Of a stretch of DNA of 61,444 nt, positions 1 to 32,480 are shown piece after piece (within the stretch, counting starts at the first letter, position 1; each line of letters begins with the position of its first letter). Location: contig CAYVXV010000005.1 in assembly GCA_964455555.1 (NCBI GenBank), positions 1-61,444 of the forward strand. The letters run 5' to 3'. The notes under the pieces were generated by a model, which ran no database searches, had not been told where the DNA came from, and worked only from the letters and a program-made list of their open reading frames with translations. The DNA is from an uncultured Pseudomonadales bacterium. Its GTDB lineage: Bacteria > Patescibacteriota > Microgenomatia > UBA1400 > PJMF01. The translations under genes and the position numbers were made by a program.

Positions 1-55
1 CAAGATTCCATGCCAACTATTTAGAAACCGTGTGCAAAAAAAGGGGCGCTTGACA

Positions 56-140
56 CGTTTTTGATAGAATTACCCTGGAAGCTCGATTCTGGAATGGGAC
101 AGTTATAACGACGCACGGGTTCCAGACCCGGGTGCTCCGC
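56..140 (+). ncRNA. Candidate small structured RNA / tRNA- or tmRNA-like element, copy 1 (85 nt)
   Basis: 80/85 nt identical to 2705-2789, with the last 55 nt identical. Begins with a -10-like TAGAAT box. Contains GAUUCUGGA and a hairpin GCACGGG-UUCCAGA-CCC(GG)GUGC followed by GCUCC, resembling the two ends of a tmRNA tRNA-like domain. An intrinsic terminator follows. Confidence 0.4.
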
Positions 141-150
141 CGATAAAAAT

Positions 151-172
151 GCAGCCAAATGGCTGCTTTTTT
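151..172 (+). terminator. Rho-independent terminator (GCAGCC-AAAU-GGCUGC + U6)
   Basis: Perfect 6-bp GC-rich stem with a 4-nt loop and a T6 run directly after element copy 1. An A-run lies upstream, so it could act bidirectionally. Confidence 0.7.
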
Positions 173-175
173 ATT

Positions 176-370
176 GGTGGAAGATGTACTGGAGCGAATC
201 CGGCGAACGAAGTGAGCCTCAGTTCGCGCCGGGGCCGAGCATACCTAATATAAAATAATGCGAGGCAACCCTAGTGCATGCGGAGTGAGCGGGAGCGAAC
301 GCAGTCGTGAATCCTGCCGGCAAGTGCGAAGCACCTGCCTAATGTCCGCAAAGCGGACCACCACCACCGC
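176..370 (+). ncRNA. Candidate structured non-coding RNA (GC-rich, multi-hairpin, unknown class)
   Basis: An ORF-free GC-rich patch inside AT-rich DNA. GGUGG (176-180) can pair with the CCACC repeats at 358-368. Internal hairpins include CCGGCGAAC...GUUCGC(GC)CGG, GGCAAGUGC-GAA-GCACCUGCC and GUCCGC-AAA-GCGGAC. The motifs GAAUCC, AGUGAGC and GCGAACG each occur twice. Confidence 0.3.
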
Positions 371-406
371 ACCTCAGGAACTATAAACACCGTTTAGAAT
401 TTTTCT

Positions 407-415
407 TGTTATAAT
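407..415 (+). promoter_or_regulatory. Extended -10 promoter (TGtTATAAT) placed for a leaderless transcript of the 422 ORF
   Basis: TGTTATAAT ends 6 nt before the ATG at 422. No Shine-Dalgarno sequence lies between them. Confidence 0.45.
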
Positions 416-421
416 GTTTCT

Positions 422-1375
422 ATGACCTCTGAGAAACAGATTGCTCAACAAGTCCTACAACAAAATTATGAATTTCCTCACGGCGAACTCTTTCTTTCCC
501 TTATTAAAGCCGGTGTAGAAAATACTAATTTTCTTATTGAGAACGGACCAAATAAATTTGTATTCCGAATCTATAACTTGGAACACTCAATCAGAGGGAC
601 AAGGAGTAAAGAGTCTATTGAGCAGGAACTAGAATTCTCTCAACAAGCAATAGCTTCTGGTATTCCAGCTCCACAGGTCATAAACAATATAGACGAAGAA
701 AGAATTACTACTTTTCTTAAGGAAGGTATAGAACGCTATTCAGCTTTATTCGCTTTTCTTCCAGGAAAATCACCAGAAAAGTATACAACTAAGAGAGTTT
801 CAGAAGTTGCTGGAGTAGTGAACACACTTTACGAAGTTGGAAAACATTTTGAAAAAACTACTACTCATACTGATTTTGATATTCTCTCTCGAGCTCTGTC
901 TAAATACGAAGAGATACAAACTTCAACAAATGATTACCCAAAAGACATTCTTGTAAGACTCCGACAACTCCACTCAGAAATTGAAAAAGCCTTGCTATCA
1001 ATCAATTTAGAACAAATATCTAAAGGCTTCGTACATGGAGATCTCAAACTAGAAAACATGCTGTTTGATGTTAATGACAACCTAACTGCCGTTTTAGATT
1101 TTGACGACTACCGATACAGCTATCTTCTTGAAGAAGCAACAATGGCACTTATGCATAACCTTCATTCAAGCAGTGAGAATATTATTCGTTCAGGGAACTA
1201 TCAAACATTCAAAACAAAACTTACTCATCCAGTACTGATTGATGAATTACATTACCTCTCATTTTTTGTGCAAGCAAGGTTTCTTTATGATCTTTGTAAA
1301 TATTTGAGTCAGGAAAACTATAAACTGATCGATGAATTACTAGAAGACGCTTATTTAAAAGCTATTTTTGAATGA
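422..1375 (+). CDS. Aminoglycoside/homoserine-kinase-type phosphotransferase (APH family) protein
   Basis: 317-aa ORF with the Brenner-type catalytic motif HGDLKLENMLF followed by LDFDD, typical of the APH/choline-kinase fold. The gene is AT-rich. Confidence 0.7.
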   Translation: MTSEKQIAQQVLQQNYEFPHGELFLSLIKAGVENTNFLIENGPNKFVFRIYNLEHSIRGTRSKESIEQELEFSQQAIASGIPAPQVINNIDEERITTFLKEGIERYSALFAFLPGKSPEKYTTKRVSEVAGVVNTLYEVGKHFEKTTTHTDFDILSRALSKYEEIQTSTNDYPKDILVRLRQLHSEIEKALLSINLEQISKGFVHGDLKLENMLFDVNDNLTAVLDFDDYRYSYLLEEATMALMHNLHSSSENIIRSGNYQTFKTKLTHPVLIDELHYLSFFVQARFLYDLCKYLSQENYKLIDELLEDAYLKAIFE

Positions 1376-1382
1376 TAAAAAA

Positions 1383-1470
1383 GTTCCAACATCATCCCAT
1401 GACGCCCGCAACAATCGAAAAGTTATGGTAGACCCGTCTAATATTCTCAAATGGGTTGATGGTGTCTGCT
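1383..1470 (+). repeat. Degenerate tRNA-Ser 3-prime-end plus downstream-flank repeat (copy 1)
   Basis: GTTCCAACATCATCCCA...CCGCAACAATCGAAAAGTT..TAGACCCGTC..AATGGGTTGATGG..CTGCT aligns with the reverse complements of 12910-12993 and 16293-16375. Its first 18 nt match 19451-19468. Confidence 0.7.
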
Positions 1471-1575
1471 AATTTTTCCACAAAACTCATGAGTGTCGCA
1501 AAAGAGGCCTGTAATGCTCAAAAGCTCGTAAAAACGCTCAGAAGGAAAGGTAGTTGGTTCTAATCTTTGCTGATA

Positions 1576-2253
1576 TTAATCTTCTATTTTTTCAATCGAA
1601 TGGACATCGAGGACAGCCCAGTTACCAATGGTGTGGCATTTACCAGCCACGCACTGCTCATCTGAGTATGCAAAATTACCATCAACCTGAACCGATTTGC
1701 CAAGTAAGGGTTCAAGTGGGATATCACTTTTTCCGATCATTGTTTCAATATCTCTATCTACCTCAATTCGGCACTCTGTTTTTCCACCCTCTCGACTGCA
1801 AACTTGATGAGCATTCATGTCTCCAGTTGACTCATATTTGAGTAGATAATTTTCTCCACGCTGAACGACTGTATATGTAGCCTCTGGATCATTAAAAGGG
1901 AAAAACTGTGGAGGCTTCTCATGAGTAAGTGACCACACAATATTCCCCAATAATCCAATGGCTACTATGGTAATAACACCTGCAATTCCAAAAAGAGTTT
2001 TCATGCGAATGGTAGATTTTGCTTTCTTCTGACCCGATAGCTTAGTGAGTATTATCAGTGCTGTGACAACTATGCTGATACAACCTAAAAGCAAAACCAT
2101 AAGTGGATATATCCACAACGGTTGAAAACTCAATAACCCAAAATTTATTTTGATTATGAGGAAGAAGCCAAAAATCAACACACTTGCTACAAGACCAGCT
2201 AAGAGGAATAGCCACAGAAACAACTTTCTGACCTGATTTTTCGACATCACCAT
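1576..2253 (-). CDS. Hypothetical membrane protein (about 3 N-terminal TM helices, Cys-containing C-terminal domain)
   Basis: Long ORF with hydrophobic N-terminal segments. The start was trimmed to the internal Met (MVMSKNQ). No recognisable catalytic motif. Confidence 0.55.
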   Translation of the reverse strand: MVMSKNQVRKLFLWLFLLAGLVASVLIFGFFLIIKINFGLLSFQPLWIYPLMVLLLGCISIVVTALIILTKLSGQKKAKSTIRMKTLFGIAGVITIVAIGLLGNIVWSLTHEKPPQFFPFNDPEATYTVVQRGENYLLKYESTGDMNAHQVCSREGGKTECRIEVDRDIETMIGKSDIPLEPLLGKSVQVDGNFAYSDEQCVAGKCHTIGNWAVLDVHSIEKIED

Positions 2254-2269
2254 GTTTCTATTGTAGCAA

Positions 2270-2566
2270 TTAAGCAATAAGCTGTAACTGTCGATCTGTC
2301 AGCATAAACTTTGATTTGACTCCACCCAATATTTTTAACCTCTCTTCAGGAGTTCCATATTGCAGTACGTGGAGTAAATATTCTTTGATTATTTCTGTTT
2401 GTGAGCTTGATACTTCGTCAATATTTTTTGCTCCAGTATTGTGTTGAGTCAGTTCAAACCTCGGTGTAAATTTATCAATCACAGTGGCTTTTAAGTGTTG
2501 CAGTCGTTTGACTTCGGTTTCAAATTCTGACATCAGATACTTCGTATTAAGTTTCATTTCTGGCAA
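2270..2566 (-). CDS. Hypothetical 98-aa protein
   Basis: ORF directly upstream of, and co-oriented with, the membrane protein gene. No recognisable motif. Confidence 0.45.
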   Translation of the reverse strand: MPEMKLNTKYLMSEFETEVKRLQHLKATVIDKFTPRFELTQHNTGAKNIDEVSSSQTEIIKEYLLHVLQYGTPEERLKILGGVKSKFMLTDRQLQLIA

Positions 2567-2704
2567 ATGTCCAATGAGCTGGTAATGAGTTCCTGCTTAG
2601 TAATGTATGGTTCTTTGCAGTCATATTATTGCTCTATCAAGGTCACTGATAACATTGTCCTAAACAAAACAAGACACTTCCTTTTTATAGTGTCTCATTT
2701 GTCC

Positions 2705-2789
2705 CGTTTTTGCTAAAATTACCCTGGAAGCCTAATTCTGGAATGGGACAGTTATAACGACGCACGGGTTCCAGACCCGGGTGCTCCGC
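2705..2789 (+). ncRNA. Candidate small structured RNA / tRNA- or tmRNA-like element, copy 2
   Basis: Direct repeat of 56-140 (5 mismatches, all in the first 30 nt). A -10-like TAAAAT box sits in the same position. It lies 58 nt upstream of the HAD gene start. Confidence 0.4.
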
Positions 2790-2847
2790 ATCCTATGAAT
2801 CACGCAATAGCAATGACCACACCTAACTAATAATACGCGTAACAAAA

Positions 2848-3459
2848 ATGAAAAAAATAAAATTTTTATATTTTGATCTGGGCGGCGTGGTTATTGATCA
2901 TGTTTTTGGGCTGACAAAAACCGCCAAGATACTAGATTTGGATTCAAAGGAAGTAATCACTTTTTTCCAAACACATGCTGATGATTTGGATAGAGGCACA
3001 CTTTCAGTCGCTGAACTTGAGGATATTTTTGAAAGCAAGTTTGGTATTAAAGAAAAAACTGATGAAAAAATAGGTGAAATAATTGTTGATAATTTTAGAG
3101 CTATCCGAGAAACTCATGATTTCATTAACCAAATAGCTAATGATTTTAAGATTGGGATATTATCAAATATTTCAGTAGATGTTTTCAATCTTATAAAAAA
3201 TAAAGAGCTCATTCCAGACATTAATTATGATTCTATTGTGCTTTCAGCAGAATTGGGGCGAATAAAACCAGAGAAAGAAATATTTGATTTTGCTTTATCA
3301 AAAACTCAATTTCATCCAGCCGAAATTTTATTCATTGATGATAGAAACGATAATATTGAAGCTGCAAAATCATTTGACTGGAATGGAATCTTGTTTGATA
3401 CCAAAGATCCTAAAAAATCTATTGAGCTAATACAAAAAAGAATTTTGCTGGGAAATTAG
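2848..3459 (+). CDS. HAD-superfamily hydrolase (subfamily IA-like phosphatase)
   Basis: N-terminal YFDLGGVVID (HAD motif I variant), a later ILSN motif and FIDD near the C-terminus. AT-rich. Confidence 0.65.
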   Translation: MKKIKFLYFDLGGVVIDHVFGLTKTAKILDLDSKEVITFFQTHADDLDRGTLSVAELEDIFESKFGIKEKTDEKIGEIIVDNFRAIRETHDFINQIANDFKIGILSNISVDVFNLIKNKELIPDINYDSIVLSAELGRIKPEKEIFDFALSKTQFHPAEILFIDDRNDNIEAAKSFDWNGILFDTKDPKKSIELIQKRILLGN

Positions 3460-3596
3460 GAGTTTTTTATCTACTCCCTGAGGGGGTGAAATACCAAACG
3501 TGGCAGTGCATGTTTGTGCTTTGCATAGGTGTAATTGTACTACTTTTTTTTACAAATTTTTTCAAAGTGTTCTCGTAAAGAAACCTGCCTCAGCCC

Positions 3597-7458: not shown

Positions 7459-8532
7459 CTATTCACCAAAAATTACTACGTACATGTTCTCTGCATGCCG
7501 AACACAGACATTACGAAAATCAGAGCTTAGCTGTGCTTCTTTGTGACCCTTCGTAGAAGAGTCAAAACACCACTCAATTAAAGCTGTACCTGTTTCCGCA
7601 ACAAATGAATCTCCGGTCTGCATATTTTTGCAATACTGAAAAGCCAAATTCTCACCAATCTTTCTGCCCTGATTATAATCAGCAATACCAACCGGAGGGT
7701 TTGCAGGATCTTCAAAATCTTTCTTAAATCCTTCATGGCCATCCAATCCACCATAAGCCACTAAATCCTGAGCTCTTTTTTCTGCGTAGCGGCAAAGGTG
7801 CTCATTAACCTGCAAAGGACGCCGTCCATGAGTAGCCCTGTATTCGTTTAAAGCAGTGATTACCTCGACATCAGGAATTTCTCTGATAGGATCGGGGGTC
7901 CTGCGGGCTGTAGCCTTGAGCTGCGCGCTTGTAACCTGGCTTGGTTTGCCCAACAGCTGGATGACAACACCCACTGGCCGGCCATTATCACCCTGAGTCA
8001 CGGTGGTAGCCATCCCAATATCGGTAAACTCATCATTTTCTATAGCAGTCAACTGCTGTTCGTCGGAGAGCCAAGCAGTCATAACTGCCTTGGCAGAAAG
8101 AGGCCCTACTAAGGCATTATGGCTAACCCATTCATAAGAGTAGCCCGAATTCTTCAAAGCTGTTTCCAAAGCATCTGATTCGAATTTTATCTCGGCATTG
8201 TAGCCATTCGTTGCCGCCACTTGAAGCAATTCCTCAGCCGCTGCATTAAGCTTGGGCTCAATAGACAACCTTGGGGCACCCTGATTTTGCCGATAATGAT
8301 TGATCTCTGCTGCCAAAGAAACAACATTTAGATCCGGCTCTTCATCAATAGAATTAAGGACTAAGTCATAAGAGACTGAATTCTCAGGCAAGACACCTAA
8401 GCGGGATAAAACCTGGAGCACAGGCTCAGGCAGTGCAATTTTTGCTTCAGTAAGAAAATAAGCACCTAAAGCCAGATTCAACCCTAGAAAAAAAGCGATG
8501 ATAGCAATCCGTTTCTGTGTTTTGCTTAACAT
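7459..8532 (-). CDS. Secreted protein with two CAP/SCP (PR-1, YkwD-like) domains
   Basis: N-terminal TM/signal segment. YRxxxGxxPL...AxxxA occurs twice (YRQNQGAPRL, YRATHGRRPL), with GENLA near the C-terminus. Confidence 0.6.
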   Translation of the reverse strand: MLSKTQKRIAIIAFFLGLNLALGAYFLTEAKIALPEPVLQVLSRLGVLPENSVSYDLVLNSIDEEPDLNVVSLAAEINHYRQNQGAPRLSIEPKLNAAAEELLQVAATNGYNAEIKFESDALETALKNSGYSYEWVSHNALVGPLSAKAVMTAWLSDEQQLTAIENDEFTDIGMATTVTQGDNGRPVGVVIQLLGKPSQVTSAQLKATARRTPDPIREIPDVEVITALNEYRATHGRRPLQVNEHLCRYAEKRAQDLVAYGGLDGHEGFKKDFEDPANPPVGIADYNQGRKIGENLAFQYCKNMQTGDSFVAETGTALIEWCFDSSTKGHKEAQLSSDFRNVCVRHAENMYVVIFGE

Positions 8533-12279: not shown

Positions 12280-12843
12280 CTACCAATCACCTTTCCCTAT
12301 GTATAGAAGCTCCTGATCATCTAGAATCTCATTTAAGAGATTTTTATTCTTAACTGGTGCAACCATCACATCTTTGGCTTTCACTATATGTTGTTCACCA
12401 TTCACATCCAAAAATGCATACCCTTTATTGGCAGGATAAAACCCTATACGACCGTAAAGTTTTTCACCTTTGGGTATGTACGTTTGTAAAAGAGCAAAGT
12501 CTACACTTTCGTTTTCTAAAACTTCCATTGCCTTTTTGAGCAGTTGAGTGGCTATTCCTTTTCCCCGATATTTTTGATCTGTGGCAACACTCCCGATACC
12601 ACCAAGTAGGATGGTCTTATCTTTCCAAATTACTGGACGAATAAAGACTCTCAAATAAGAAATAAGCTCTTTGTCATTTTTGTGAACTATATGAGCGAAT
12701 GGCTGAGAAAAGTAAAGTAACTTTCGATGTTTTTTCAGATTTTTTTCAAAACACTTTTCTTCAAAGGCAAAAAGATCAGCGCGTTGTTGTTCATTTAATT
12801 GATTATCAGGTACTACGGTGATATTTGAAGTCATATGAATCAA
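12280..12843 (-). CDS. GNAT-family N-acetyltransferase
   Basis: Acetyl-CoA binding motif QKYRGKGIATQLL. AT-rich. Confidence 0.7.
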   Translation of the reverse strand: MIHMTSNITVVPDNQLNEQQRADLFAFEEKCFEKNLKKHRKLLYFSQPFAHIVHKNDKELISYLRVFIRPVIWKDKTILLGGIGSVATDQKYRGKGIATQLLKKAMEVLENESVDFALLQTYIPKGEKLYGRIGFYPANKGYAFLDVNGEQHIVKAKDVMVAPVKNKNLLNEILDDQELLYIGKGDW

Positions 12844-12909
12844 TTATAGCTACTTACTTTGATAGTTCCACGGCTGTAGAAATGAAAAATGTTGAAATCA
12901 AGGAAATTT

Positions 12910-12993
12910 AGCAAGCCCCATCAATCCATTCAGTGGTAATGGACGGGTCTATCAGAACTTTTCGATTGTTGCGGAGGTGGTGGGATTCGAACC
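12910..12993 (-). repeat. Truncated tRNA-Ser 3-prime end (T-loop to discriminator) plus about 60-nt downstream flank; putative att-type repeat
   Basis: The minus strand reads GGTTCGAATCCCACCACCTCCGCAACAATCGAAAAGTTCTGATAGACCCGTC...TTGATGGGGCTTGCT. This is colinear with the 3-prime end and flank of the intact tRNA-Ser at 16355-16437. There is no 5-prime half, so it is not a functional tRNA. Confidence 0.75.
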
Positions 12994-13077
12994 GCGCAAC
13001 ATTTACCTCAAGTATTTATAGGTCTAAGAGCCATTCTAGCTCATTTTTAGACCTTGCGAAGCATCAAAAGTGAGTCA

Positions 13078-13086
13078 TGATATAAT
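13078..13086 (+). promoter_or_regulatory. Extended -10 promoter (TGaTATAAT)
   Basis: Same TGnTATAAT architecture as at 407-415. An ATG lies 7 nt downstream. Confidence 0.4.
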
Positions 13087-13092
13087 CATTAC

Positions 13093-13218
13093 AATGCAAA
13101 TAAATAACATGCACCACTATGCTTGGTATTACACCCCAACCGGGAGGTGTGTGTTTTTAGTGCAGTAATAAAATAAAAAGCATGAATAAGTCACAACCTC
13201 CCACCTGGGAGGTTTTTT
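13093..13218 (+). ncRNA. Candidate sRNA or pair of mini-ORFs (24 and 12 codons) ending in a strong terminator
   Basis: Two hairpins share CC-ACC-N-GGGAGGU: ACACC..GGUGU at about 13130-13152, and AACCUCCC-ACCU-GGGAGGUU + U6 at 13195-13218. Mini-ORFs are MQINNMHHYAWYYTPTGRCVFLVQ (13094-13168) and MNKSQPPTWEVF (13182-13220). Confidence 0.3.
13195..13218 (+). terminator. Rho-independent terminator
   Basis: Perfect 8-bp stem AACCTCCC/GGGAGGTT with a 4-nt loop, followed by a T-run. Confidence 0.75.
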
Positions 13219-13355
13219 AGTATTTATTCATAGAAAGGGCATCATGCCAGAACAATTACAAAACATTTTATGGATGGGTGAAGAAATGGATTTTAATCTT
13301 CGACCTGAGGATAAAGCACAAGCAAGAACTTCAATCCAAGAGTTCTTGAATTTAG

Positions 13356-14237
13356 TTGCTAACCCAGCGTTATCCCACTGGCTTTATCGAGCCAACAAAT
13401 AATATTCCCAAACTAGAAAAAGAAATTGTATCTTTAAATAACCAACCTACTTTAGTCATTGATTTGACGAGAGGTAAACTTGCGTCATCTTTAACTTCAA
13501 TTGCTCATATTCCCCAATGGAATTCATTTTCAATTGGCAGAGTACGAGAAGCGACAAAAGTTGATTTGCCAACAAGTGGACATATTTTAAGCCATAATAC
13601 TGAAGAAATTAGAGATCAACTCATTGATCTCGATACTTCTCGCATACTGGTATTGGATGATACATCCTTCTCAGGAACAACTTCATTGCTGGTTGAAAGT
13701 TTACTAAAACAAGCATTCCCAGATAGAATAATCCAATTTACTCACGGATTCTTAATCGTGAATACTGGCAAACTAGGTAATCAAGATGGAGCTTTTAGCC
13801 AAATTAATAGAGGTGGTTCTCATGTTATCAGTGGTTTTAAAATGGAAACTCCCAGGGATGATGGATGGCATTTCTTTGACATTGTTGATCAAGATCACAT
13901 AGAAAATCATTTATTAGTTGTTAAAGAAATCTTAGGATTACTCCAACTTCCTAATTTTGAACATCTGATTGCTTCGTTTTTAAGTAACGAAAATGTATTA
14001 CAAGCAATGTTTCCACAACTAATGCCAGCAGATGATTTGCTTGACCAGCAAAAGTCAGGACATTTCCTCGCTCGGACAAATATTAATGGTGGATTCCATG
14101 TAAGAAATCCACAATTACTACCCAATATTATTGGTCAGAATCATTTATTGACACCTTCAAAATGGAAAGCCAGTTCTAATCAAGTGTTTGCACTACTCGT
14201 ACAAATTAATAAATTTTTGCGGAAAGGAAATGTATGA
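13356..14237 (+). CDS. Phosphoribosyltransferase-like protein with a long C-terminal extension; 5-prime end unclear (possible frameshift with ORF 13244-13402)
   Basis: PRPP-loop ILVLDDTSFSGTTS. The only in-frame start is the TTG at 13356, with no SD. The upstream ATG ORF (13244) has an SD-like GAAAGGG and overlaps it in the 0/+1 frames. Confidence 0.55.
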   Translation: MLTQRYPTGFIEPTNNIPKLEKEIVSLNNQPTLVIDLTRGKLASSLTSIAHIPQWNSFSIGRVREATKVDLPTSGHILSHNTEEIRDQLIDLDTSRILVLDDTSFSGTTSLLVESLLKQAFPDRIIQFTHGFLIVNTGKLGNQDGAFSQINRGGSHVISGFKMETPRDDGWHFFDIVDQDHIENHLLVVKEILGLLQLPNFEHLIASFLSNENVLQAMFPQLMPADDLLDQQKSGHFLARTNINGGFHVRNPQLLPNIIGQNHLLTPSKWKASSNQVFALLVQINKFLRKGNV

Positions 14238-14905
14238 AAAAAATTGAAGCCATAATTTTTGATATGGACGGTACTCTGTACTCTTTTGATGAAGGAAATG
14301 AAAGCCAGTTCACATCTTCTAGATTTGGGAAGGAAATTCGAGTAAATTGCATTCTATTCTTCAAAGAACGGTTTAATCTTTCTCTAAAGGATGCTGAAAG
14401 CATGTATCAAGATTTAAGTAGAAGATATAATGGCGAAGTCAGTCTTGCAGTTGAAAAGGAGTTTGGCATAGATCGCAGTGAATACTTTGCTTTTACTTGG
14501 AATCTAGAAGCTGAGGAATTTATTGCTACAAATGAATCACTCTTGCCTACATTCCAAGAATTAACCATTCCCTCTGGAGTGTTAACAGCTGCACCCAGAG
14601 TTTGGGCAGAAAGGGCTCTTGCCTTTTTACAAATCCGTCAACTTTTTGGTGATGCATTGTTTACGGGAGATCCAGATATTCGCAAACCTGATCCAGAGGC
14701 ATTTCTACAATTAGCTCAGTTTTGGAACTTAGAACCAAGTCGAATCTTGTCTATCGGAGATCAAGAACAAACAGATATTTTACCTGCCAAATCACTGGGA
14801 ATGCAAACACTGCGAATTGCTACACAAGCCGAAACTAAGGCTGACTTTATGGCACCAGATATTATTAAAGCCATAGCTTTATTAAAAGAGAAAGGAATTA
14901 TATGA
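14234..14905 (+). CDS. HAD-superfamily phosphatase (nucleotidase-like)
   Basis: Motif I IIFDMDGTLY and motif IV GDQEQTD. Its ATG overlaps the stop of the upstream gene (ATGA). Confidence 0.7.
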   Translation: MKKIEAIIFDMDGTLYSFDEGNESQFTSSRFGKEIRVNCILFFKERFNLSLKDAESMYQDLSRRYNGEVSLAVEKEFGIDRSEYFAFTWNLEAEEFIATNESLLPTFQELTIPSGVLTAAPRVWAERALAFLQIRQLFGDALFTGDPDIRKPDPEAFLQLAQFWNLEPSRILSIGDQEQTDILPAKSLGMQTLRIATQAETKADFMAPDIIKAIALLKEKGII

Positions 14906-15834
14906 ACAATAAACCAAAACTTATCATCGACACTGATCCAGGACACGATGATGCTCTTGCAATATTAATGACACTCTTGTCAGATCAATTTGACGTATTA
15001 GCAATCACCACAGTGGCTGGTAATGCGACAATTAAAAAAGTAACAAGAAATGCACAGGCGATTCTTGATTTGATTGGCTCTCATGCTCCAGTTTTTTCTG
15101 GTATAGACAAGCCTTTGAAGCGAAAACTTGTTACTGCCGTAGTGCATGGTGAATCTGGGTTGGCGGGGTTTGATACTACTAACACTGACTACAAAGTAAC
15201 AAAAAATGCACCTGAGAAAATAGTTGAGTTAGTTAAAGCCAATCCAGGAGAAGTGACAATTTTAGCACTTGGACCACTGAGTAATATAGCTCGGGCCATA
15301 CAACTAGATTCACAGTTTTCAAGCAAAGTAAAACAACTTGTAATCATGGGTGGTGCGATAGACGTTCCTGGCAATAAAAATAGAGTGGCTGAGTTTAACT
15401 TCTTTGTAGATCCTGAGGCAGCTAACCTTGTCTTTAAATCCAAAATTCCAAAAGTTTTGGTACCTCTTGATGCCTGCAATGAAATAGTGCTTCAGGTTGA
15501 GGATTTTCAAAAGGTGGAAAACGATAATCTCAAATCAATTCTGATTCCCATGATGGAACACTTTATTGCTGGACTCACTTCTGACGAAGGCACGACAGGA
15601 ATTCTCGTTTACGATGCTCTTGCCGCTTACTACCTTCTTAATCCAAATGCGTTCACTCTGAAATCGATGAATGTGGTGATTGAAACTCAAGGACAACATA
15701 CCTTTGGCATGAGTGTGGCAGAAAAGCGGCCACATAAAGTTGAAAATACAAATGTTGAAGTTGTGGTAGGAATTGACGACCAGCAATTTCGTCGAGACTT
15801 TTTTAAAACATTAAGTACTGGGGAGCAAAAATGA
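14902..15834 (+). CDS. Nucleoside hydrolase (inosine-uridine preferring, IUNH family)
   Basis: N-terminal fingerprint LIIDTDPGHDDALAI and typical length. Start overlaps the upstream stop (ATGA). Confidence 0.85.
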   Translation: MNNKPKLIIDTDPGHDDALAILMTLLSDQFDVLAITTVAGNATIKKVTRNAQAILDLIGSHAPVFSGIDKPLKRKLVTAVVHGESGLAGFDTTNTDYKVTKNAPEKIVELVKANPGEVTILALGPLSNIARAIQLDSQFSSKVKQLVIMGGAIDVPGNKNRVAEFNFFVDPEAANLVFKSKIPKVLVPLDACNEIVLQVEDFQKVENDNLKSILIPMMEHFIAGLTSDEGTTGILVYDALAAYYLLNPNAFTLKSMNVVIETQGQHTFGMSVAEKRPHKVENTNVEVVVGIDDQQFRRDFFKTLSTGEQK

Positions 15835-16232
15835 AAGTTCTGTTTGTGTGCCAAGCCAATGTGGGAAGAAGTCAAATGGCTGAAGCGTTTTATAACTTTC
15901 ATACACAGAGTAATGATGCTATCAGTGCTGGAGTAGAAGATTTTCGAGAAAAGTATCAACACAAGCCAACTCGAGAAATAATTGAAGCCATGCTAGAAAA
16001 AGGAATTGACATTTCTCATCAACGAATTGATTTTTTAACACCAGGGATGCTCACAAACGCTGACCAGGTAGTTGTGCTTTGCTCAAAAGACTTGTGTCCT
16101 GAATTCTTACTTGAAAACGGAAAAGTTGTTTTTAGAGAAATTGAGGATCCACATCAACAAGATTTGAAAACTATTCAGCGAATTAGAGATCAGATTGGAG
16201 GGTTAGTTCTTGAGTTGGTAAAAAATATCTGA
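15831..16232 (+). CDS. Low-molecular-weight phosphatase / ArsC-type reductase family protein
   Basis: P-loop VLFVCQANVGRSQMAEA (CX5R-S) plus a second Cys pair LCSKDLCP. Start overlaps the upstream stop (ATGA). Confidence 0.7.
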   Translation: MKVLFVCQANVGRSQMAEAFYNFHTQSNDAISAGVEDFREKYQHKPTREIIEAMLEKGIDISHQRIDFLTPGMLTNADQVVVLCSKDLCPEFLLENGKVVFREIEDPHQQDLKTIQRIRDQIGGLVLELVKNI

Positions 16233-16354
16233 AATATCGATAAATAACTTACTAAGCTGTAAAGCTGAAATATGTTTAAAACGAGGTTTTTAAGCAAGAT
16301 CCATCAACCCATTCGAGAGTATTAGACGGGTCTATCAGAACTTTTCAACTGTTG

Positions 16355-16437
16355 CGGAAGGAGTGGGATTCGAACCCACGAAGCCGTGAGGCTCTGGTTT
16401 TCAAGACCAGTGCAATTGACCGCTCTGCCATCCTTCC
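16355..16437 (-). tRNA. tRNA-Ser (anticodon UGA)
   Basis: Minus strand reads GGAAGGA...TCCTTCC-G. Anticodon loop CTTGAAA, long variable arm, T-loop TTCGAAT. Confidence 0.9.
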
Positions 16438-32041: not shown

Positions 32042-32308
32042 CTATAATACGGATACTTCGGGGATGTATTGCTTTGACGTGATACGCTCATTAACATCTG
32101 CAGACCGTCTTTGATCAGAGAAGACGTTAAACAGGGTCACAAACACAACTGCAAACGAAAAAATTGCAGGCGCCAAAAGCATGTTGCTCGAAACCCTTGG
32201 TTTCGGCTCATCTGAGGCCCCAGCTTTCGCTCCAGCAATGGTTGCGTAAAGCGGCATTCGGTTGTCCGGTCTCATTGATGCCGGCTTCCGGGTGAAAACC
32301 TTAATCAA
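32042..32308 (-). CDS. Hypothetical 88-aa protein with one TM segment (doubtful)
   Basis: ORF only, overlapped by other short ORFs. Confidence 0.2.
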   Translation of the reverse strand: MIKVFTRKPASMRPDNRMPLYATIAGAKAGASDEPKPRVSSNMLLAPAIFSFAVVFVTLFNVFSDQRRSADVNERITSKQYIPEVSVL

Positions 32309-32480
32309 TGTGACAGCAGCCCGTCGCTTGTTGCGGACAGCTTAAGACTAAAGACAAGGATTGGTTGAAAACGGTTGGTTTGCTTTACCTCTCATCCAAT
32401 AACAAAGGCAAACTAAGTCTGTAGATGATGTTATTGCTCTATTGCGGACGGGGGCTCAAAACCCCCCATCTCCACTATAA

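What the first reader, a model, noticed from the sequence alone, without database searches (positions are those of the whole stretch)
56..2789. 85-nt tRNA/tmRNA-like element present twice as direct repeats bracketing a 2.6-kb AT-rich accessory segment
56-140 and 2705-2789 are 80/85 identical. All 5 mismatches lie in the first 30 nt and the last 55 nt are identical. Each copy starts with a -10-like box (TAGAAT / TAAAAT). The predicted RNA (GGAAGC..GAUUCUGGAAUGGGAC...GACGCACGGGUUCCAGACCCGGGUGCUCC) echoes the 5-prime end (GAUUCUGGA) and the 3-prime T-arm/acceptor (GACGC-GGGUUC...GCUCC) of a tmRNA tRNA-like domain, but there is no mRNA-like domain in between. UCUGGAA and UUCCAGA are also exact complements, which allows an alternative fold. 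A divergent 5-prime part joined to an identical 3-prime part is the classic footprint of site-specific integration into a small RNA gene. Yet no integrase lies between the copies, only a structured RNA, a kinase and two orphans. It could therefore be a novel minimal tRNA-like RNA gene family, a cis-regulatory leader (copy 1 is followed by a terminator, copy 2 by a HAD gene), or att scars.
Basis: partly seen in the sequence, partly recalled or inferred. Interest (0 to 1): 0.72.

Follow-up and report, generated by a model that had tools for sequence, protein, structure and literature searches.

The report
Decayed tRNA-Ser copy used as island junction
The repeated 85-nt element is a worn-down copy of a serine tRNA gene with its own promoter, found in many Patescibacteria genomes at junctions where accessory and defence genes are swapped in next to serine tRNA genes; it is most likely a recombination site, not a new kind of RNA.

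Summary
Window 50-140 and 2699-2789 are a 91-nt direct repeat (92% identical, last 55 nt identical). ARAGORN and Rfam call neither copy, and a genuine tmRNA lies elsewhere at 32060-32477.

The element is a real family. I found about 50 copies in about 35 Patescibacteria contigs, always co-oriented within a locus. It has three parts:
- a conserved upstream/-10 module;
- a drifting 5' half;
- a near-invariant 40-nt 3' module, which also occurs alone straight after stop codons.

Both halves align to tRNA-Ser(GCU) better than shuffles, so it is a decayed tRNA-Ser. No RNA fold shows covariation.

Its neighbours point to recombination:
- Every nearby tRNA in other loci is tRNA-Ser.
- The sequences downstream of the element are the same as those downstream of genuine tRNA-Ser genes.
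- Upstream synteny is kept while the downstream side varies.
- A large serine-integrase family whose 3' end runs antisense into tRNA-Ser abuts this element in two loci.
- The '98-aa orphan' between the two window copies is a serine-recombinase remnant.

Best reading (confidence 0.55): it is a pseudo-tRNA-Ser attachment/junction module with a promoter, inside a tRNA-Ser-linked island array. The two window copies are separate junctions, not attL/attR of one island. This is a new variant of a known kind and of moderate interest.

The parts
20..140 (+). Element A, copy 1. Contains TGn + TAGAAT at 62-70, a pseudo-tRNA-Ser body at 77-140 (GGAAGC...GCTCCGC), the palindrome GTTATAAC (anticodon-loop equivalent) at 102-109, a T-arm-like CGGG/TTCCAGA/CCCG at 116-130 and an acceptor-3'-like GGTGCTCC-G-C at 131-140. 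Its upstream module is replaced left of about 56.
   Evidence: (nhmmer 20-140, score 109.9)
141..172 (+). Bidirectional terminator-like hairpin (GCAGCC AAAT GGCTGC + T-run) directly after copy 1. A homologous hairpin with compensatory changes follows the element in L046.
176..372 (+). GC-rich, strongly folding segment closed by GGUGG/CCACC and ending in a tRNA-3'-end-like CCACCACCACCGC. Read here as the remnant of an inserted unit whose right end mimics a tRNA 3' end.
   Evidence: z -4.4; no Rfam hit; similar GC-rich inserts after A or tRNA-Ser in L015, L020, L028, L036
422..1375 (+). APH-family kinase gene (AT-rich cargo).
1401..1485 (+). GACGCCCGC (1401-1409) joined to 'motif B' (from 1410). 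Motif B is the conserved sequence that follows genuine tRNA-Ser genes, and follows element A directly in L004, L012 and L036. It marks the original downstream flank; everything in 141-1409 is inserted relative to those loci.
1576..2277 (-). 233-aa predicted membrane protein with no family assignment.
2270..2596 (-). C-terminal remnant of a large serine recombinase (the '98-aa orphan'), truncated on the side facing copy 2.
   Evidence: jackhmmer E 9e-26; 41% over the last 37 aa, E 6e-7; homologues carrying PF13408 Zn_ribbon_recom
2666..2789 (+). Element A, copy 2, full length. Contains the upstream module at 2666-2713, TGn + TAAAAT at 2711-2719, the pseudo-tRNA body at 2726-2789 and the 3' module at 2751-2789.
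   Evidence: (score 135.4)
2848..3459 (+). HAD-family hydrolase gene downstream of copy 2 (AT-rich cargo).
12886..12998 (-). Displaced tRNA 3' fragment (GGTTCGAATCCCACCACCTCCGC) followed by a second copy of motif B. A classic island-junction remnant in the same region.
16269..16437 (-). Genuine tRNA-Ser(UGA) at 16354-16437, followed by motif B. This is the apparently unoccupied form of the site.

Best explanation
The 85-nt repeat is the core of a 125-150-nt composite DNA element, called 'A' here, that is specific to a clade of Patescibacteria. Its transcribed part is a decayed copy of a tRNA-Ser gene. It keeps the acceptor 5' strand GGAAGC, D-arm remnants, an anticodon-loop equivalent GTTATAAC, a T-arm-like CGGG-TTCCAGA-CCCG and the acceptor 3' strand plus G73 and C74. 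The long variable arm is lost.

It sits behind a conserved -10 promoter and an upstream module. In five contigs that module is shared with a divergently transcribed LexA-like repressor gene.

Proposed mechanism. The element is a surrogate tRNA-Ser attachment or junction site in a tRNA-Ser-linked array of genomic islands. DNA to its left stays with it. DNA to its right is exchanged at or next to its 3' module, in the same way as at real tRNA-Ser genes. The only recombinases found touching these sites are large serine integrases, whose 3' end runs antisense into the tRNA-Ser or A 3' end. The near-invariant 3' module, set against a drifting 5' half, is what repeated replacement or recognition at the DNA level would give. 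The promoter reads across the junction into whatever lies downstream.

In the window, copy 1 once lay directly before motif B (now from 1410). The terminator with the GC-rich unit and the kinase unit were inserted between them. Copy 2 is a second, independent junction that truncated a recombinase gene and now precedes the HAD gene.

Shown: the family, its modular anatomy, descent from tRNA-Ser, flank sharing with tRNA-Ser genes, the synteny asymmetry, and integrases abutting the element in two loci.

Inferred: that integrases act on it, where the crossover lies, that the promoter is active, and whether A is the target side or the end of an upstream island.
For: 1. The family is real. There are 11 exact-pattern hits in Patescibacteria MAGs and 24 metagenome contigs. 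A profile search finds about 50 copies. Every locus with several copies has them co-oriented.

2. The element is modular. In 38 distinct copies the upstream module, the -10 box and the 3' module are conserved, while the 5' half drifts. The 3' module occurs alone, starting exactly at GTTATAAC, straight after stop codons of unrelated genes.

3. The promoter appears to be under selection. Where the TG of the extended -10 is lost, the hexamer becomes a perfect TATAAT (L013b, L038, L035b, L012b).

4. It descends from tRNA-Ser. The 5' half and the 3' half each align to tRNA-Ser(GCU) of L015 with z = 4.6 (1/1000 shuffles) and z = 3.9 (0/1000).

5. It is linked to tRNA-Ser genes. All 9 tRNAs near A copies in other loci are tRNA-Ser, and the 8 in loci where the element's strand was mapped are co-oriented with it except tRNA-Ser(gct) in L015.

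6. Flanks are shared with tRNA-Ser genes.
- Motif B follows tRNA-Ser(UGA) in the window, and follows A directly in L004, L012 (twice) and L036.
- In L015, tRNA-Ser(GCU) and A are followed by the same 75-nt GC-rich insert plus motif B.
- The flank after tRNA-Ser(ACU) in L031 equals the flank after A in L040.

7. Hybrids with canonical tRNA 3' ends exist (L030b, L004).

8. Seven groups of copies share 490-500 nt upstream (74-100% identical) but not downstream.

9. Integrases touch these sites.
- A family of 2268 large serine recombinases was found.
- 56 of the 120 listed end in W-R-R..DSN, the antisense translation of a tRNA 3' end.
- In L031 and L068-L071 the gene ends antisense in tRNA-Ser.
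- In L038 a member 87% identical to P0122 ends 3 nt inside A.
- L040 has a 120-aa remnant next to A.
- The window ORF 2270-2596 is a recombinase remnant.
- One IMG/VR contig has A's upstream module 22-35 nt after the stop of another large serine recombinase.

10. Neighbours are typical island cargo: CBASS, restriction-modification systems, and APH, GNAT and HAD genes.
Against: - Only 2 of about 35 loci have an integrase touching A. No recombinase was found in the other loci or, apart from the remnant, in the 61-kb window.
- Serine integrases do not normally create long direct repeats, yet the arrays contain repeated tRNA-3'-like ends. A different or additional mechanism (tyrosine recombinase, homologous recombination, gene conversion) may be responsible.
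- The sequences left of the 3'-only copies are not conserved, as an integrase half-site should be.
- The repeat finder finds no long inverted repeat across the 3' junction.
- A DNA half-site of about 25 bp does not explain the high conservation of the whole upstream module across unrelated left-hand contexts.
- The invariance of the core is partly imposed by my exact search patterns.
- No transcription or recombination data are available.
Confidence: 0.55

Rival explanations
1. A is a functional small RNA gene: a minimal tRNA-like RNA of about 65 nt, perhaps under LexA-like control. Like tRNA and tmRNA genes, it merely serves as an integration target because it is conserved.
For: - The -10 box is kept, with promoter-level compensation.
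- The -10 ends 6 nt before GGAAGC.
- At least 4 copies (window copy 1, L027, L046, L047a) are followed at once by intrinsic terminators, which gives a discrete unit of about 95 nt.
- Next to the LexA-like gene, A looks like a divergent stand-alone unit.
- Variant copies restore a 6-bp 5'/3' terminal helix in different ways: GGAGUG/UGCUCC in L013b and L038, GGAGUU/AGCUCC in L033a (read by eye).
Against: - None of the four folds tested shows covariation above shuffles.
- In the main family the acceptor stem is broken (3 pairs plus a bulge), and the closing T-stem pair is lost in 18 of 38 copies.
- The 5' half drifts or is missing in many copies, and the 3' module occurs alone without promoter or 5' strand.
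- The fold energy of the 70-mer is ordinary (z -0.5 to -1.0).
- There is no Rfam or ARAGORN hit.
Confidence: 0.2
2. A is a selfish, MITE- or REP-like intergenic repeat that carries an outward promoter and spreads by an unidentified transposase. The tRNA-Ser likeness is only its ancestry.
For: - It is multi-copy and about 90-95% identical across species whose flanks are unalignable.
- It always lies in intergenic positions and is co-oriented locally.
- Assemblies break at it.
- A hairpin precedes many copies (ATGTATCAAAATACAT).
Against: - It has no terminal inverted repeats or target-site duplications.
- No Y1 or DDE transposase was detected near any copy.
- Its right-hand flanks are not random but fall into a few types shared with tRNA-Ser genes.
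- Left flank and element stay together in 7 syntenic groups, which is not expected for independent insertions.
Confidence: 0.12
3. A is a cis-regulatory 5' leader (riboswitch or attenuator) controlling the downstream gene.
For: - There is a promoter-like box upstream.
- About 20 of 28 copies have a co-oriented ORF downstream.
- Copy 1 has a terminator and copy 2 has none, which superficially resembles on/off states.
Against: - Downstream genes are functionally unrelated: kinase, HAD, flavodoxin-like, phosphatase, unknowns.
- Eight copies face convergent genes, and one faces an integrase.
- The distance to the start codon ranges from 2 to more than 300 nt.
- There is no covariation and no alternative-pairing logic.
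- 70% co-orientation is about the background level in these strand-coherent genomes (my estimate, not measured).
Confidence: 0.05
4. The two copies are simply attL and attR scars of one 2.6-kb island, or a local duplication with no wider meaning.
For: They are direct repeats that bracket AT-rich accessory genes and a recombinase remnant.
Against: - Both copies include the promoter and the 5' half.
- The AT-rich DNA continues past copy 2 into the HAD gene.
- Motif B, the flank of the unoccupied site, lies inside the segment.
- The element exists in about 35 other contigs with other partners.
Confidence: 0.03

Closest known systems
tRNA-gene attachment sites of integrative elements: attB in a tRNA 3' part, with displaced tRNA fragments flanking islands (established knowledge; e.g. 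the Williams 2002 survey of integrase sublocations in tRNA and tmRNA genes, recalled from memory)
   Same: - The element derives from the 3' part of a tRNA.
- It sits at island junctions.
- An integrase gene is convergent with, and overlaps, the tRNA-like 3' end.
- Tandem, co-oriented remnants occur.
- The cargo is made of defence and accessory genes.
   Different: - The site is not a working tRNA but a decayed copy with its own conserved promoter and upstream module.
- It is spread at about 90-95% identity across species.
- The adjacent enzymes are large serine, not tyrosine, integrases.
- Most copies have no integrase nearby.
Large serine integrase att sites: attP about 50 bp and attB about 40 bp, pseudo-palindromic around a central dinucleotide (established knowledge)
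   Same: - TCTGGAA ... GTTATAAC ... TTCCAGA forms a pseudo-palindrome of about 40 bp.
- The 3'-only copies begin at its centre.
- Serine integrase genes end at the element in L038 and L040.
   Different: - No recombination has been demonstrated.
- The left arm drifts, and the sequences left of the 3'-only copies are not conserved.
- Long repeated tRNA-like ends are not expected from serine integrases.
Integron platform (Pc promoter + attI, with cassette arrays of conserved attC repeats such as the Vibrio VCRs)
   Same: - A promoter lies immediately upstream of a recombination junction.
- Conserved repeats of about 125 nt are co-oriented and separated by 1-3 kb of one or two accessory genes.
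- There may be an SOS link through a LexA-like gene.
   Different: - There is no IntI-type tyrosine recombinase.
- There is no attC R''/L''/L'/R' hairpin architecture.
- Some cassette genes are reversed.
- The repeat is tRNA-derived.
tmRNA tRNA-like domain and other tRNA-like small RNAs
   Same: A T-arm-like hairpin followed by an acceptor-like 3' strand ending in G-C(C-A).
   Different: - There is no Rfam RF00023 or RF00005 match.
- There is no G3-U70 pair and no mRNA-like domain.
- The acceptor helix is not maintained.
- The genuine ssrA is elsewhere in the window (32060-32477).
Promoter-bearing intergenic repeats (Correia elements, ERIC/REP/BIME)
   Same: It is a short, multi-copy intergenic element that may carry a promoter and ends in a hairpin.
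   Different: - It has no terminal inverted repeats or target duplication.
- It is tied to tRNA-Ser loci and to a small set of shared flanks.

Membership tests
Canonical tRNA (Rfam RF00005 / ARAGORN) | Cloverleaf recognised by tRNA detectors | tested here: not met
   ARAGORN finds 5 tRNAs and 1 tmRNA in the window but neither copy. Rfam gives no hit even at E<=10.
Canonical tRNA (Rfam RF00005 / ARAGORN) | 7-bp acceptor helix and 5-bp T stem maintained | tested here: not met
   Acceptor-like pairs are 82% paired with no excess covariation. The T-stem closing pair is unpaired in 18 of 38 copies.
tRNA-derived sequence (pseudo-tRNA-Ser) | Significant sequence similarity to a tRNA-Ser over both halves | tested here: met
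   Against L015 tRNA-Ser(GCU), z = 4.6 for the 5' half (1/1000 shuffles) and z = 3.9 for the 3' half (0/1000). Similarity to the window's own tRNA-Ser(UGA) is weak or absent.
tmRNA (RF00023) | tRNA-like domain plus mRNA-like domain with tag ORF; match to the covariance model | tested here: not met
   There is no RF00023 hit on the element. The only tmRNA is at 32060-32477 (110.8 bits).
Riboswitch / cis-regulatory leader | Conserved secondary structure supported by covariation | tested here: not met
   The four candidate structures score no better than shuffles.
Riboswitch / cis-regulatory leader | Consistent functional class of downstream genes | tested here: not met
   Downstream genes are a kinase, HAD, flavodoxin-like, phosphatase, unknowns, convergent genes and an integrase.
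Attachment site of tRNA-targeting integrative elements | Site corresponds to (part of) a tRNA gene, and its flanks match those of genuine tRNA genes | tested here: met
Attachment site of tRNA-targeting integrative elements | Integrase gene adjacent to the site | tested here: inconclusive
   Met in L038 (87% identical to P0122, ending 3 nt inside A) and, as a remnant, in L040. The window has a remnant of another recombinase type 70 nt upstream of copy 2. It is absent from about 30 other loci.
Attachment site of tRNA-targeting integrative elements | Occupied versus empty site comparison | tested here: inconclusive
   A directly before motif B in L004, L012 and L036, compared with A + 1.27 kb + motif B in the window. 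There are 7 upstream-syntenic groups with different downstream DNA. No strictly isogenic empty/occupied pair was found.
Attachment site of tRNA-targeting integrative elements | Recombination by the cognate integrase | not testable with these tools
   This needs in vitro or in vivo assays, or read-level evidence of circular junctions.
Integron (IntI + attI/attC) | IntI-type tyrosine recombinase next to the array; attC hairpin with R''/L''/L'/R' boxes | tested here: not met
The element has no end-to-end dyad symmetry.
MITE / REP-type repeat | Terminal inverted repeats and target-site duplication, or a REP hairpin with a RAYT/Y1 transposase | tested here: not met
   The ends are not complementary. 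There is no Y1 transposase in any A locus, tested with a real Y1 query from L060.

The most novel reading that the evidence does not exclude
A is an expression-and-capture platform, a functional analogue of an integron built from a tRNA gene. A DNA-damage-responsive (LexA-like-controlled) promoter is fused to a pseudo-tRNA-Ser attachment site. Genes delivered by tRNA-Ser-specific serine integrases would then land directly behind an inducible promoter. The platform itself would travel between Patescibacteria on defence islands. A variant of this reading is that the pseudo-tRNA transcript is itself functional, for example as an antisense regulator of the convergent integrase or as a tRNA-Ser decoy.
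Probability: 0.15. Interest if true: 0.75.

Novelty: new variant of a known kind. Interest (0 to 1): 0.45.

Why it matters
Patescibacteria (CPR) have tiny genomes, and little is known about how they acquire accessory and defence genes. This element marks a recurrent, sequence-defined junction next to tRNA-Ser genes where CBASS, restriction-modification and small metabolic or resistance-type genes are exchanged. It also connects that junction to a very large, tRNA-Ser-associated family of serine integrases.

In practice it can serve as a marker for variable regions, and for assembly breaks, in CPR metagenome bins. It also offers candidate attB/attP pairs for new serine integrases.

It is not evidence for a new class of tRNA-like RNA. 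That more exciting reading is weakened by the lack of covariation and by the element's modular decay.

Tried and rejected
- tmRNA, tRNA or any known RNA family. ARAGORN and Rfam, at gathering thresholds and at E<=10, give nothing on the element, nor on 11 related loci apart from real tRNAs.
- RNA folds. The minimum-free-energy structure is unremarkable (z -0.5 to -1.0). P2 (UCUGGAA/UUCCAGA), P1 (ACCCUGG/CCCGGGU), acceptor plus T-arm, and the upstream inverted repeat TGTCCCATT/AATGGGACA all fail the covariation controls. The two variable patches (GCUCGAUUCU and GGG) vary independently of each other (by eye).
- A coding reading. The sense frame has no start codon in most copies and a stop in L012a. 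The antisense frame is open only as the read-through tail of the L038 integrase.
- Phage origin. Two viral scans gave chance hits in high-GC contigs and one real partial match, L055. Similarity of L055 to the rest of A is not significant (18/500 shuffles).
This negative is unreliable, because real serine-recombinase queries later found hits.
- Recovering the DNA upstream of the window start through the kinase protein failed: the protein is not on record. The HAD contig breaks inside the repeat.
- The Sanchez-Osuna, Barbe and Erill 2017 paper on the Patescibacteria SOS network could not be read, so the LexA-box idea for the upstream module is untested.
- A long inverted repeat across the 3' junction was not found.
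- The integron attC, MITE and riboswitch models were rejected, as set out in the membership table.

Full report
**1. The observation**

The window carries two direct copies of a 91-nt sequence, at 50-140 and 2699-2789, that are 92% identical. The 3' 53-mer occurs exactly twice, against none expected by chance. The -10-like boxes, the terminator after copy 1, the HAD gene after copy 2 and the low GC of 400-3460 are all as described. The AT-rich stretch continues past copy 2 into the HAD gene, so the copies do not neatly bracket it.

**2. Not a known RNA**

ARAGORN finds five tRNAs and a tmRNA in the window but not the element. Rfam 15 gives no match at gathering thresholds or at E<=10. The real tmRNA is at 32060-32477, and its 3' end is unrelated. 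That removes the 'duplicated ssrA end' explanation. The 70-mer folds no better than shuffled sequence (z about -0.5 to -1.0).

**3. A real, clade-wide family**

A degenerate pattern scan of one genome per species found the element, with identical spacing, in 11 places in Patescibacteria MAGs: Woesebacteria, Pacebacteria, BroJett025 and several records titled 'Pseudomonadales', of which one isolate is named HK-STAS-PATE. I did not verify those labels. The other 12 hits were chance matches in high-GC genomes. A metagenome scan added 24 contigs. A profile built from the copies finds about 50 instances in about 35 contigs. Every locus with more than one copy has them all on the same strand.

**4. 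Anatomy**

The conserved unit is 124 nt, and often about 150 nt with a further upstream hairpin. In order it contains:
- An upstream module, AAAACAAGACACNCCCTTTTTATAGTGTCCCATTTGTCCCGTTTTTG.
- A -10 box with a TGn extension. The box is always retained, and where TG is lost the hexamer becomes a perfect TATAAT. That is a promoter-level compensation.
- Six nt further on, a 5' half (GGAAGC...UCUGGAAUGGGACA) that drifts and is replaced or absent in several copies.
- A 40-nt 3' module, GTTATAACGACGCACGGGTTCCAGACC-nnn-TGCTCCGC, in which only three or four positions vary.

The 3' module also occurs alone. It then starts exactly at GTTATAAC, straight after the stop codons of unrelated genes, and once only 2 nt before the next start codon. 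The upstream module also occurs alone (L012c, L043, L055).

Caveat: my search patterns required part of the 3' module exactly, so its invariance is partly ascertainment. Extra copies found only by profile do vary there (L047b, L033a, L030b).

**5. No support for an RNA structure**

I used 38 distinct copies. The UCUGGAA/UUCCAGA helix has no double changes and 31 unpaired cells. The ACCCUGG/CCCGGGU helix, the acceptor-plus-T-arm model and the upstream inverted repeat are indistinguishable from column shuffles.

Power is limited because the copies are close. Still, the pattern seen is one strand drifting while the other stays fixed. That is the opposite of what a conserved helix shows. A few variant copies do restore a 5'/3' terminal helix in different ways (L013b and L038: GGAGUG/UGCUCC; L033a: GGAGUU/AGCUCC). 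This keeps the sRNA rival alive.

**6. It is a decayed tRNA-Ser**

The 5' half and the 3' half each align to tRNA-Ser(GCU) of L015 far better than shuffles (z 4.6 and 3.9). The correspondences are:
- GGAAGC is the acceptor 5' strand.
- ACAG-TTATAAC corresponds to the anticodon stem and loop.
- CGGG-TTCCAGA-CCCG corresponds to the T arm.
- GGTGCTCC-G-C(CA) corresponds to the acceptor 3' strand, the discriminator G73 and the start of CCA.

The long variable arm and most of the D arm are gone, and the acceptor strands no longer match.

**7. Neighbourhoods tie it to tRNA-Ser loci and to recombination**

All nine tRNAs that ARAGORN finds near copies in other loci are tRNA-Ser.

A conserved non-coding 'motif B' of about 90-120 nt follows several things:
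- the genuine tRNA-Ser(UGA) in the window (16354-16437);
- a displaced tRNA 3' fragment at about 12970-12998;
- the end of the kinase segment, from 1410;
- element A directly, in L004, L012 (twice) and L036.

Relative to those loci, window copy 1 has 1.27 kb inserted between A and motif B: the terminator, a GC-rich folded segment and the kinase.

In L015 the same 75-nt GC-rich insert plus motif B follows both tRNA-Ser(GCU) and A. The flank of tRNA-Ser(ACU) in L031 equals the flank of A in L040. A second variant of motif B follows tRNA-Ser in L042 and L015 and follows A in L032. Hybrids with canonical tRNA 3' ends exist (L030b, L004). Short T-arm-plus-acceptor fragments close cassettes, for example A, two genes, then a fragment in L009 and L013.

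Seven groups of copies share their upstream 500 nt at 74-100% identity. Downstream they share only motif B or terminator pieces. The variable side is therefore 3' of the element.

**8. Recombinases**

Real sequences did.
- An IMG/VR contig (L055-L058) has A's upstream module 22-35 nt after the stop of a 570-aa large serine recombinase, inside a defence island. Relatives of that enzyme end antisense in tRNA-Trp.
- Using the second serine recombinase of that contig as a query, jackhmmer hit three things. The first is a 572-aa enzyme in L031 that runs antisense over tRNA-Ser(ACU). The second is an enzyme in L038 that runs antisense into element A. The third is the window's '98-aa orphan'.
- The L038 enzyme belongs to a family of 2268 proteins. 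In that family, 56 of the 120 listed members end in W-R-R..DSN, the antisense translation of a tRNA 3' end.
- Contexts L068-L071 show these genes ending in tRNA-Ser with anticodons UGA, GCU, GGA and CGA.
- In L038, homology to P0122 (87% identity) stops 3 nt inside A's 3' end. L040 keeps a 120-aa remnant beside A.
- The last 37 residues of the window ORF 2270-2596(-) match the C-terminus of the L057 recombinase (41% identity, E 6e-7). Its database homologues include Zn_ribbon_recom fragments.

So a recombinase remnant lies 70 nt upstream of copy 2, truncated on the side facing it.

**9. Cargo and regulators**

In five contigs a LexA-like gene (LexA_DNA_bind + Peptidase_S24) starts about 20 nt from A's upstream module and is transcribed divergently. 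It heads a CBASS operon (SMODS cyclase plus SAVED effector). CBASS or restriction-modification genes lie upstream of A in several other loci. The module contains TGTCCC twice in direct repeat and once inverted, which makes it a candidate operator. This is untested.

In the window the neighbours are APH, HAD, GNAT, nucleoside hydrolase and phosphatase genes.

**10. Interpretation**

The simplest account of all this is that A is a pseudo-tRNA-Ser that acts, at the DNA level, as a surrogate tRNA-Ser attachment or junction site in island arrays. It carries a promoter that reads across the junction. This reading explains:
- the invariant 3' part against the drifting 5' part;
- the stand-alone 3' modules that begin at the anticodon-loop equivalent;
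- the pseudo-palindrome TCTGGAA...GTTATAAC...TTCCAGA;
- the shared flanks;
- the synteny asymmetry;
- the assembly breaks.

Several things remain uncertain:
- whether A is the target side or the conserved end of the island to its left;
- whether exchange happens at GTTATAAC or at the CCGC end;
- whether serine integrases are really responsible. They touch A in only two loci, they do not normally generate long repeats, and the sequences left of the 3'-only copies are not conserved.

The two window copies are two separate junctions, not the two ends of one island.

**11. Verdict**

The finding is real and is not in Rfam. It is best filed as a new variant of a known phenomenon: tRNA-derived attachment sites at genomic-island junctions. 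It is not a new class of tRNA-like RNA. Interest is moderate (0.45). Confidence in the recombination-module reading is 0.55. The functional-sRNA rival stands at 0.2.

Noticed in passing
window 1410-1485 (+), 12886-12977 (-), 16269-16360 (-); also L012, L015, L036, L047, L004, L032, L033, L028: 'Motif B' is a conserved non-coding element of about 90-120 nt (AACAATCGAAAAGTTCTGATAGACCCGTCTAATA..GAATGGGTTGATGG.GCTTGCTAAATTTCC..). It directly follows tRNA-Ser genes, tRNA fragments and element A in several genomes. A second variant begins AAGGTCTTCGGTTGCTCCAAGACCCG. It has no Rfam hit and its function is unknown; it could be a tRNA-Ser trailer RNA, an att arm or a decayed tRNA.
   Followed up: partly
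window 176-372 (+): A GC-rich segment in an AT-rich context folds strongly (-78.8 kcal/mol, z -4.4), is closed by GGUGG/CCACC and ends in CCACCACCACCGC, like a tRNA 3' end. It has no Rfam hit. Heterogeneous GC-rich inserts sharing GAACGAAGTGAG follow A or tRNA-Ser in L015, L020, L028 and L036, and GC-rich stretches precede tRNA-Ser in L069 and L071.
   Followed up: partly
L031 8235-8322, L039 3822-3909 (c), L042 303-390 (c): ARAGORN predicts tRNA-Ser with anticodon ACU in three independent contigs. An unmodified A34 Ser tRNA is unusual in bacteria. In L031 this tRNA is the one overlapped by a serine integrase.
   Followed up: no
L027 635-4001, L029, L034, L038/L072, L046: A LexA-like repressor (LexA_DNA_bind + Peptidase_S24, about 203 aa) is the first gene of a CBASS operon (SAVED effector + SMODS/AGS_C cyclase). 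This suggests DNA-damage-type control of CBASS in Patescibacteria.
   Followed up: partly
P0121-P0240; L068 4872-6431 and 10001-11596; L069-L071: A very large family of serine integrases of about 500-580 aa (2268 hits, one cluster with 444 members) has ORFs that read antisense through the adjacent tRNA-Ser. This gives variable C-terminal tails (WRRDRDSNP...). L068 also holds an inverted 150-nt copy of an integrase 3' end next to a pseudo-tRNA end, upstream of the integrase.
   Followed up: partly
window 32060-32477 (+): The genuine tmRNA has an unusually long predicted tag peptide of 32 residues (ANEKIAGAKSMLLETLGFGSSEAPAFAPAMVA) and large insertions relative to the Rfam model.
   Followed up: no
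L015 (native coordinates): tRNA-Ser(gct) at 7819-7907 (+) vs element A at 3174-3297 (-): The same 75-nt GC-rich insert plus motif B follows tRNA-Ser(GCU) and element A in inverted orientation, about 4.6 kb apart. This arrangement could allow inversion of the intervening segment.
   Followed up: no
L001 (Logan SRR9016294 contig), L072/L073: Independent assemblies break inside element A or inside the adjacent integrase, as expected for multi-copy mobile sequence. MAG contigs of these organisms are likely fragmented at such sites.
   Followed up: no
window 12280-16232: Between the tRNA fragment with motif B (about 12.9 kb) and tRNA-Ser(UGA) with motif B (16.3 kb) lies a 3.3-kb block of accessory genes: an unknown 293-aa protein, HAD, an inosine-uridine nucleoside hydrolase and a low-molecular-weight phosphatase. 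A GNAT gene lies just beyond it. The block looks like a second integrase-less island at the same kind of junction.
   Followed up: partly
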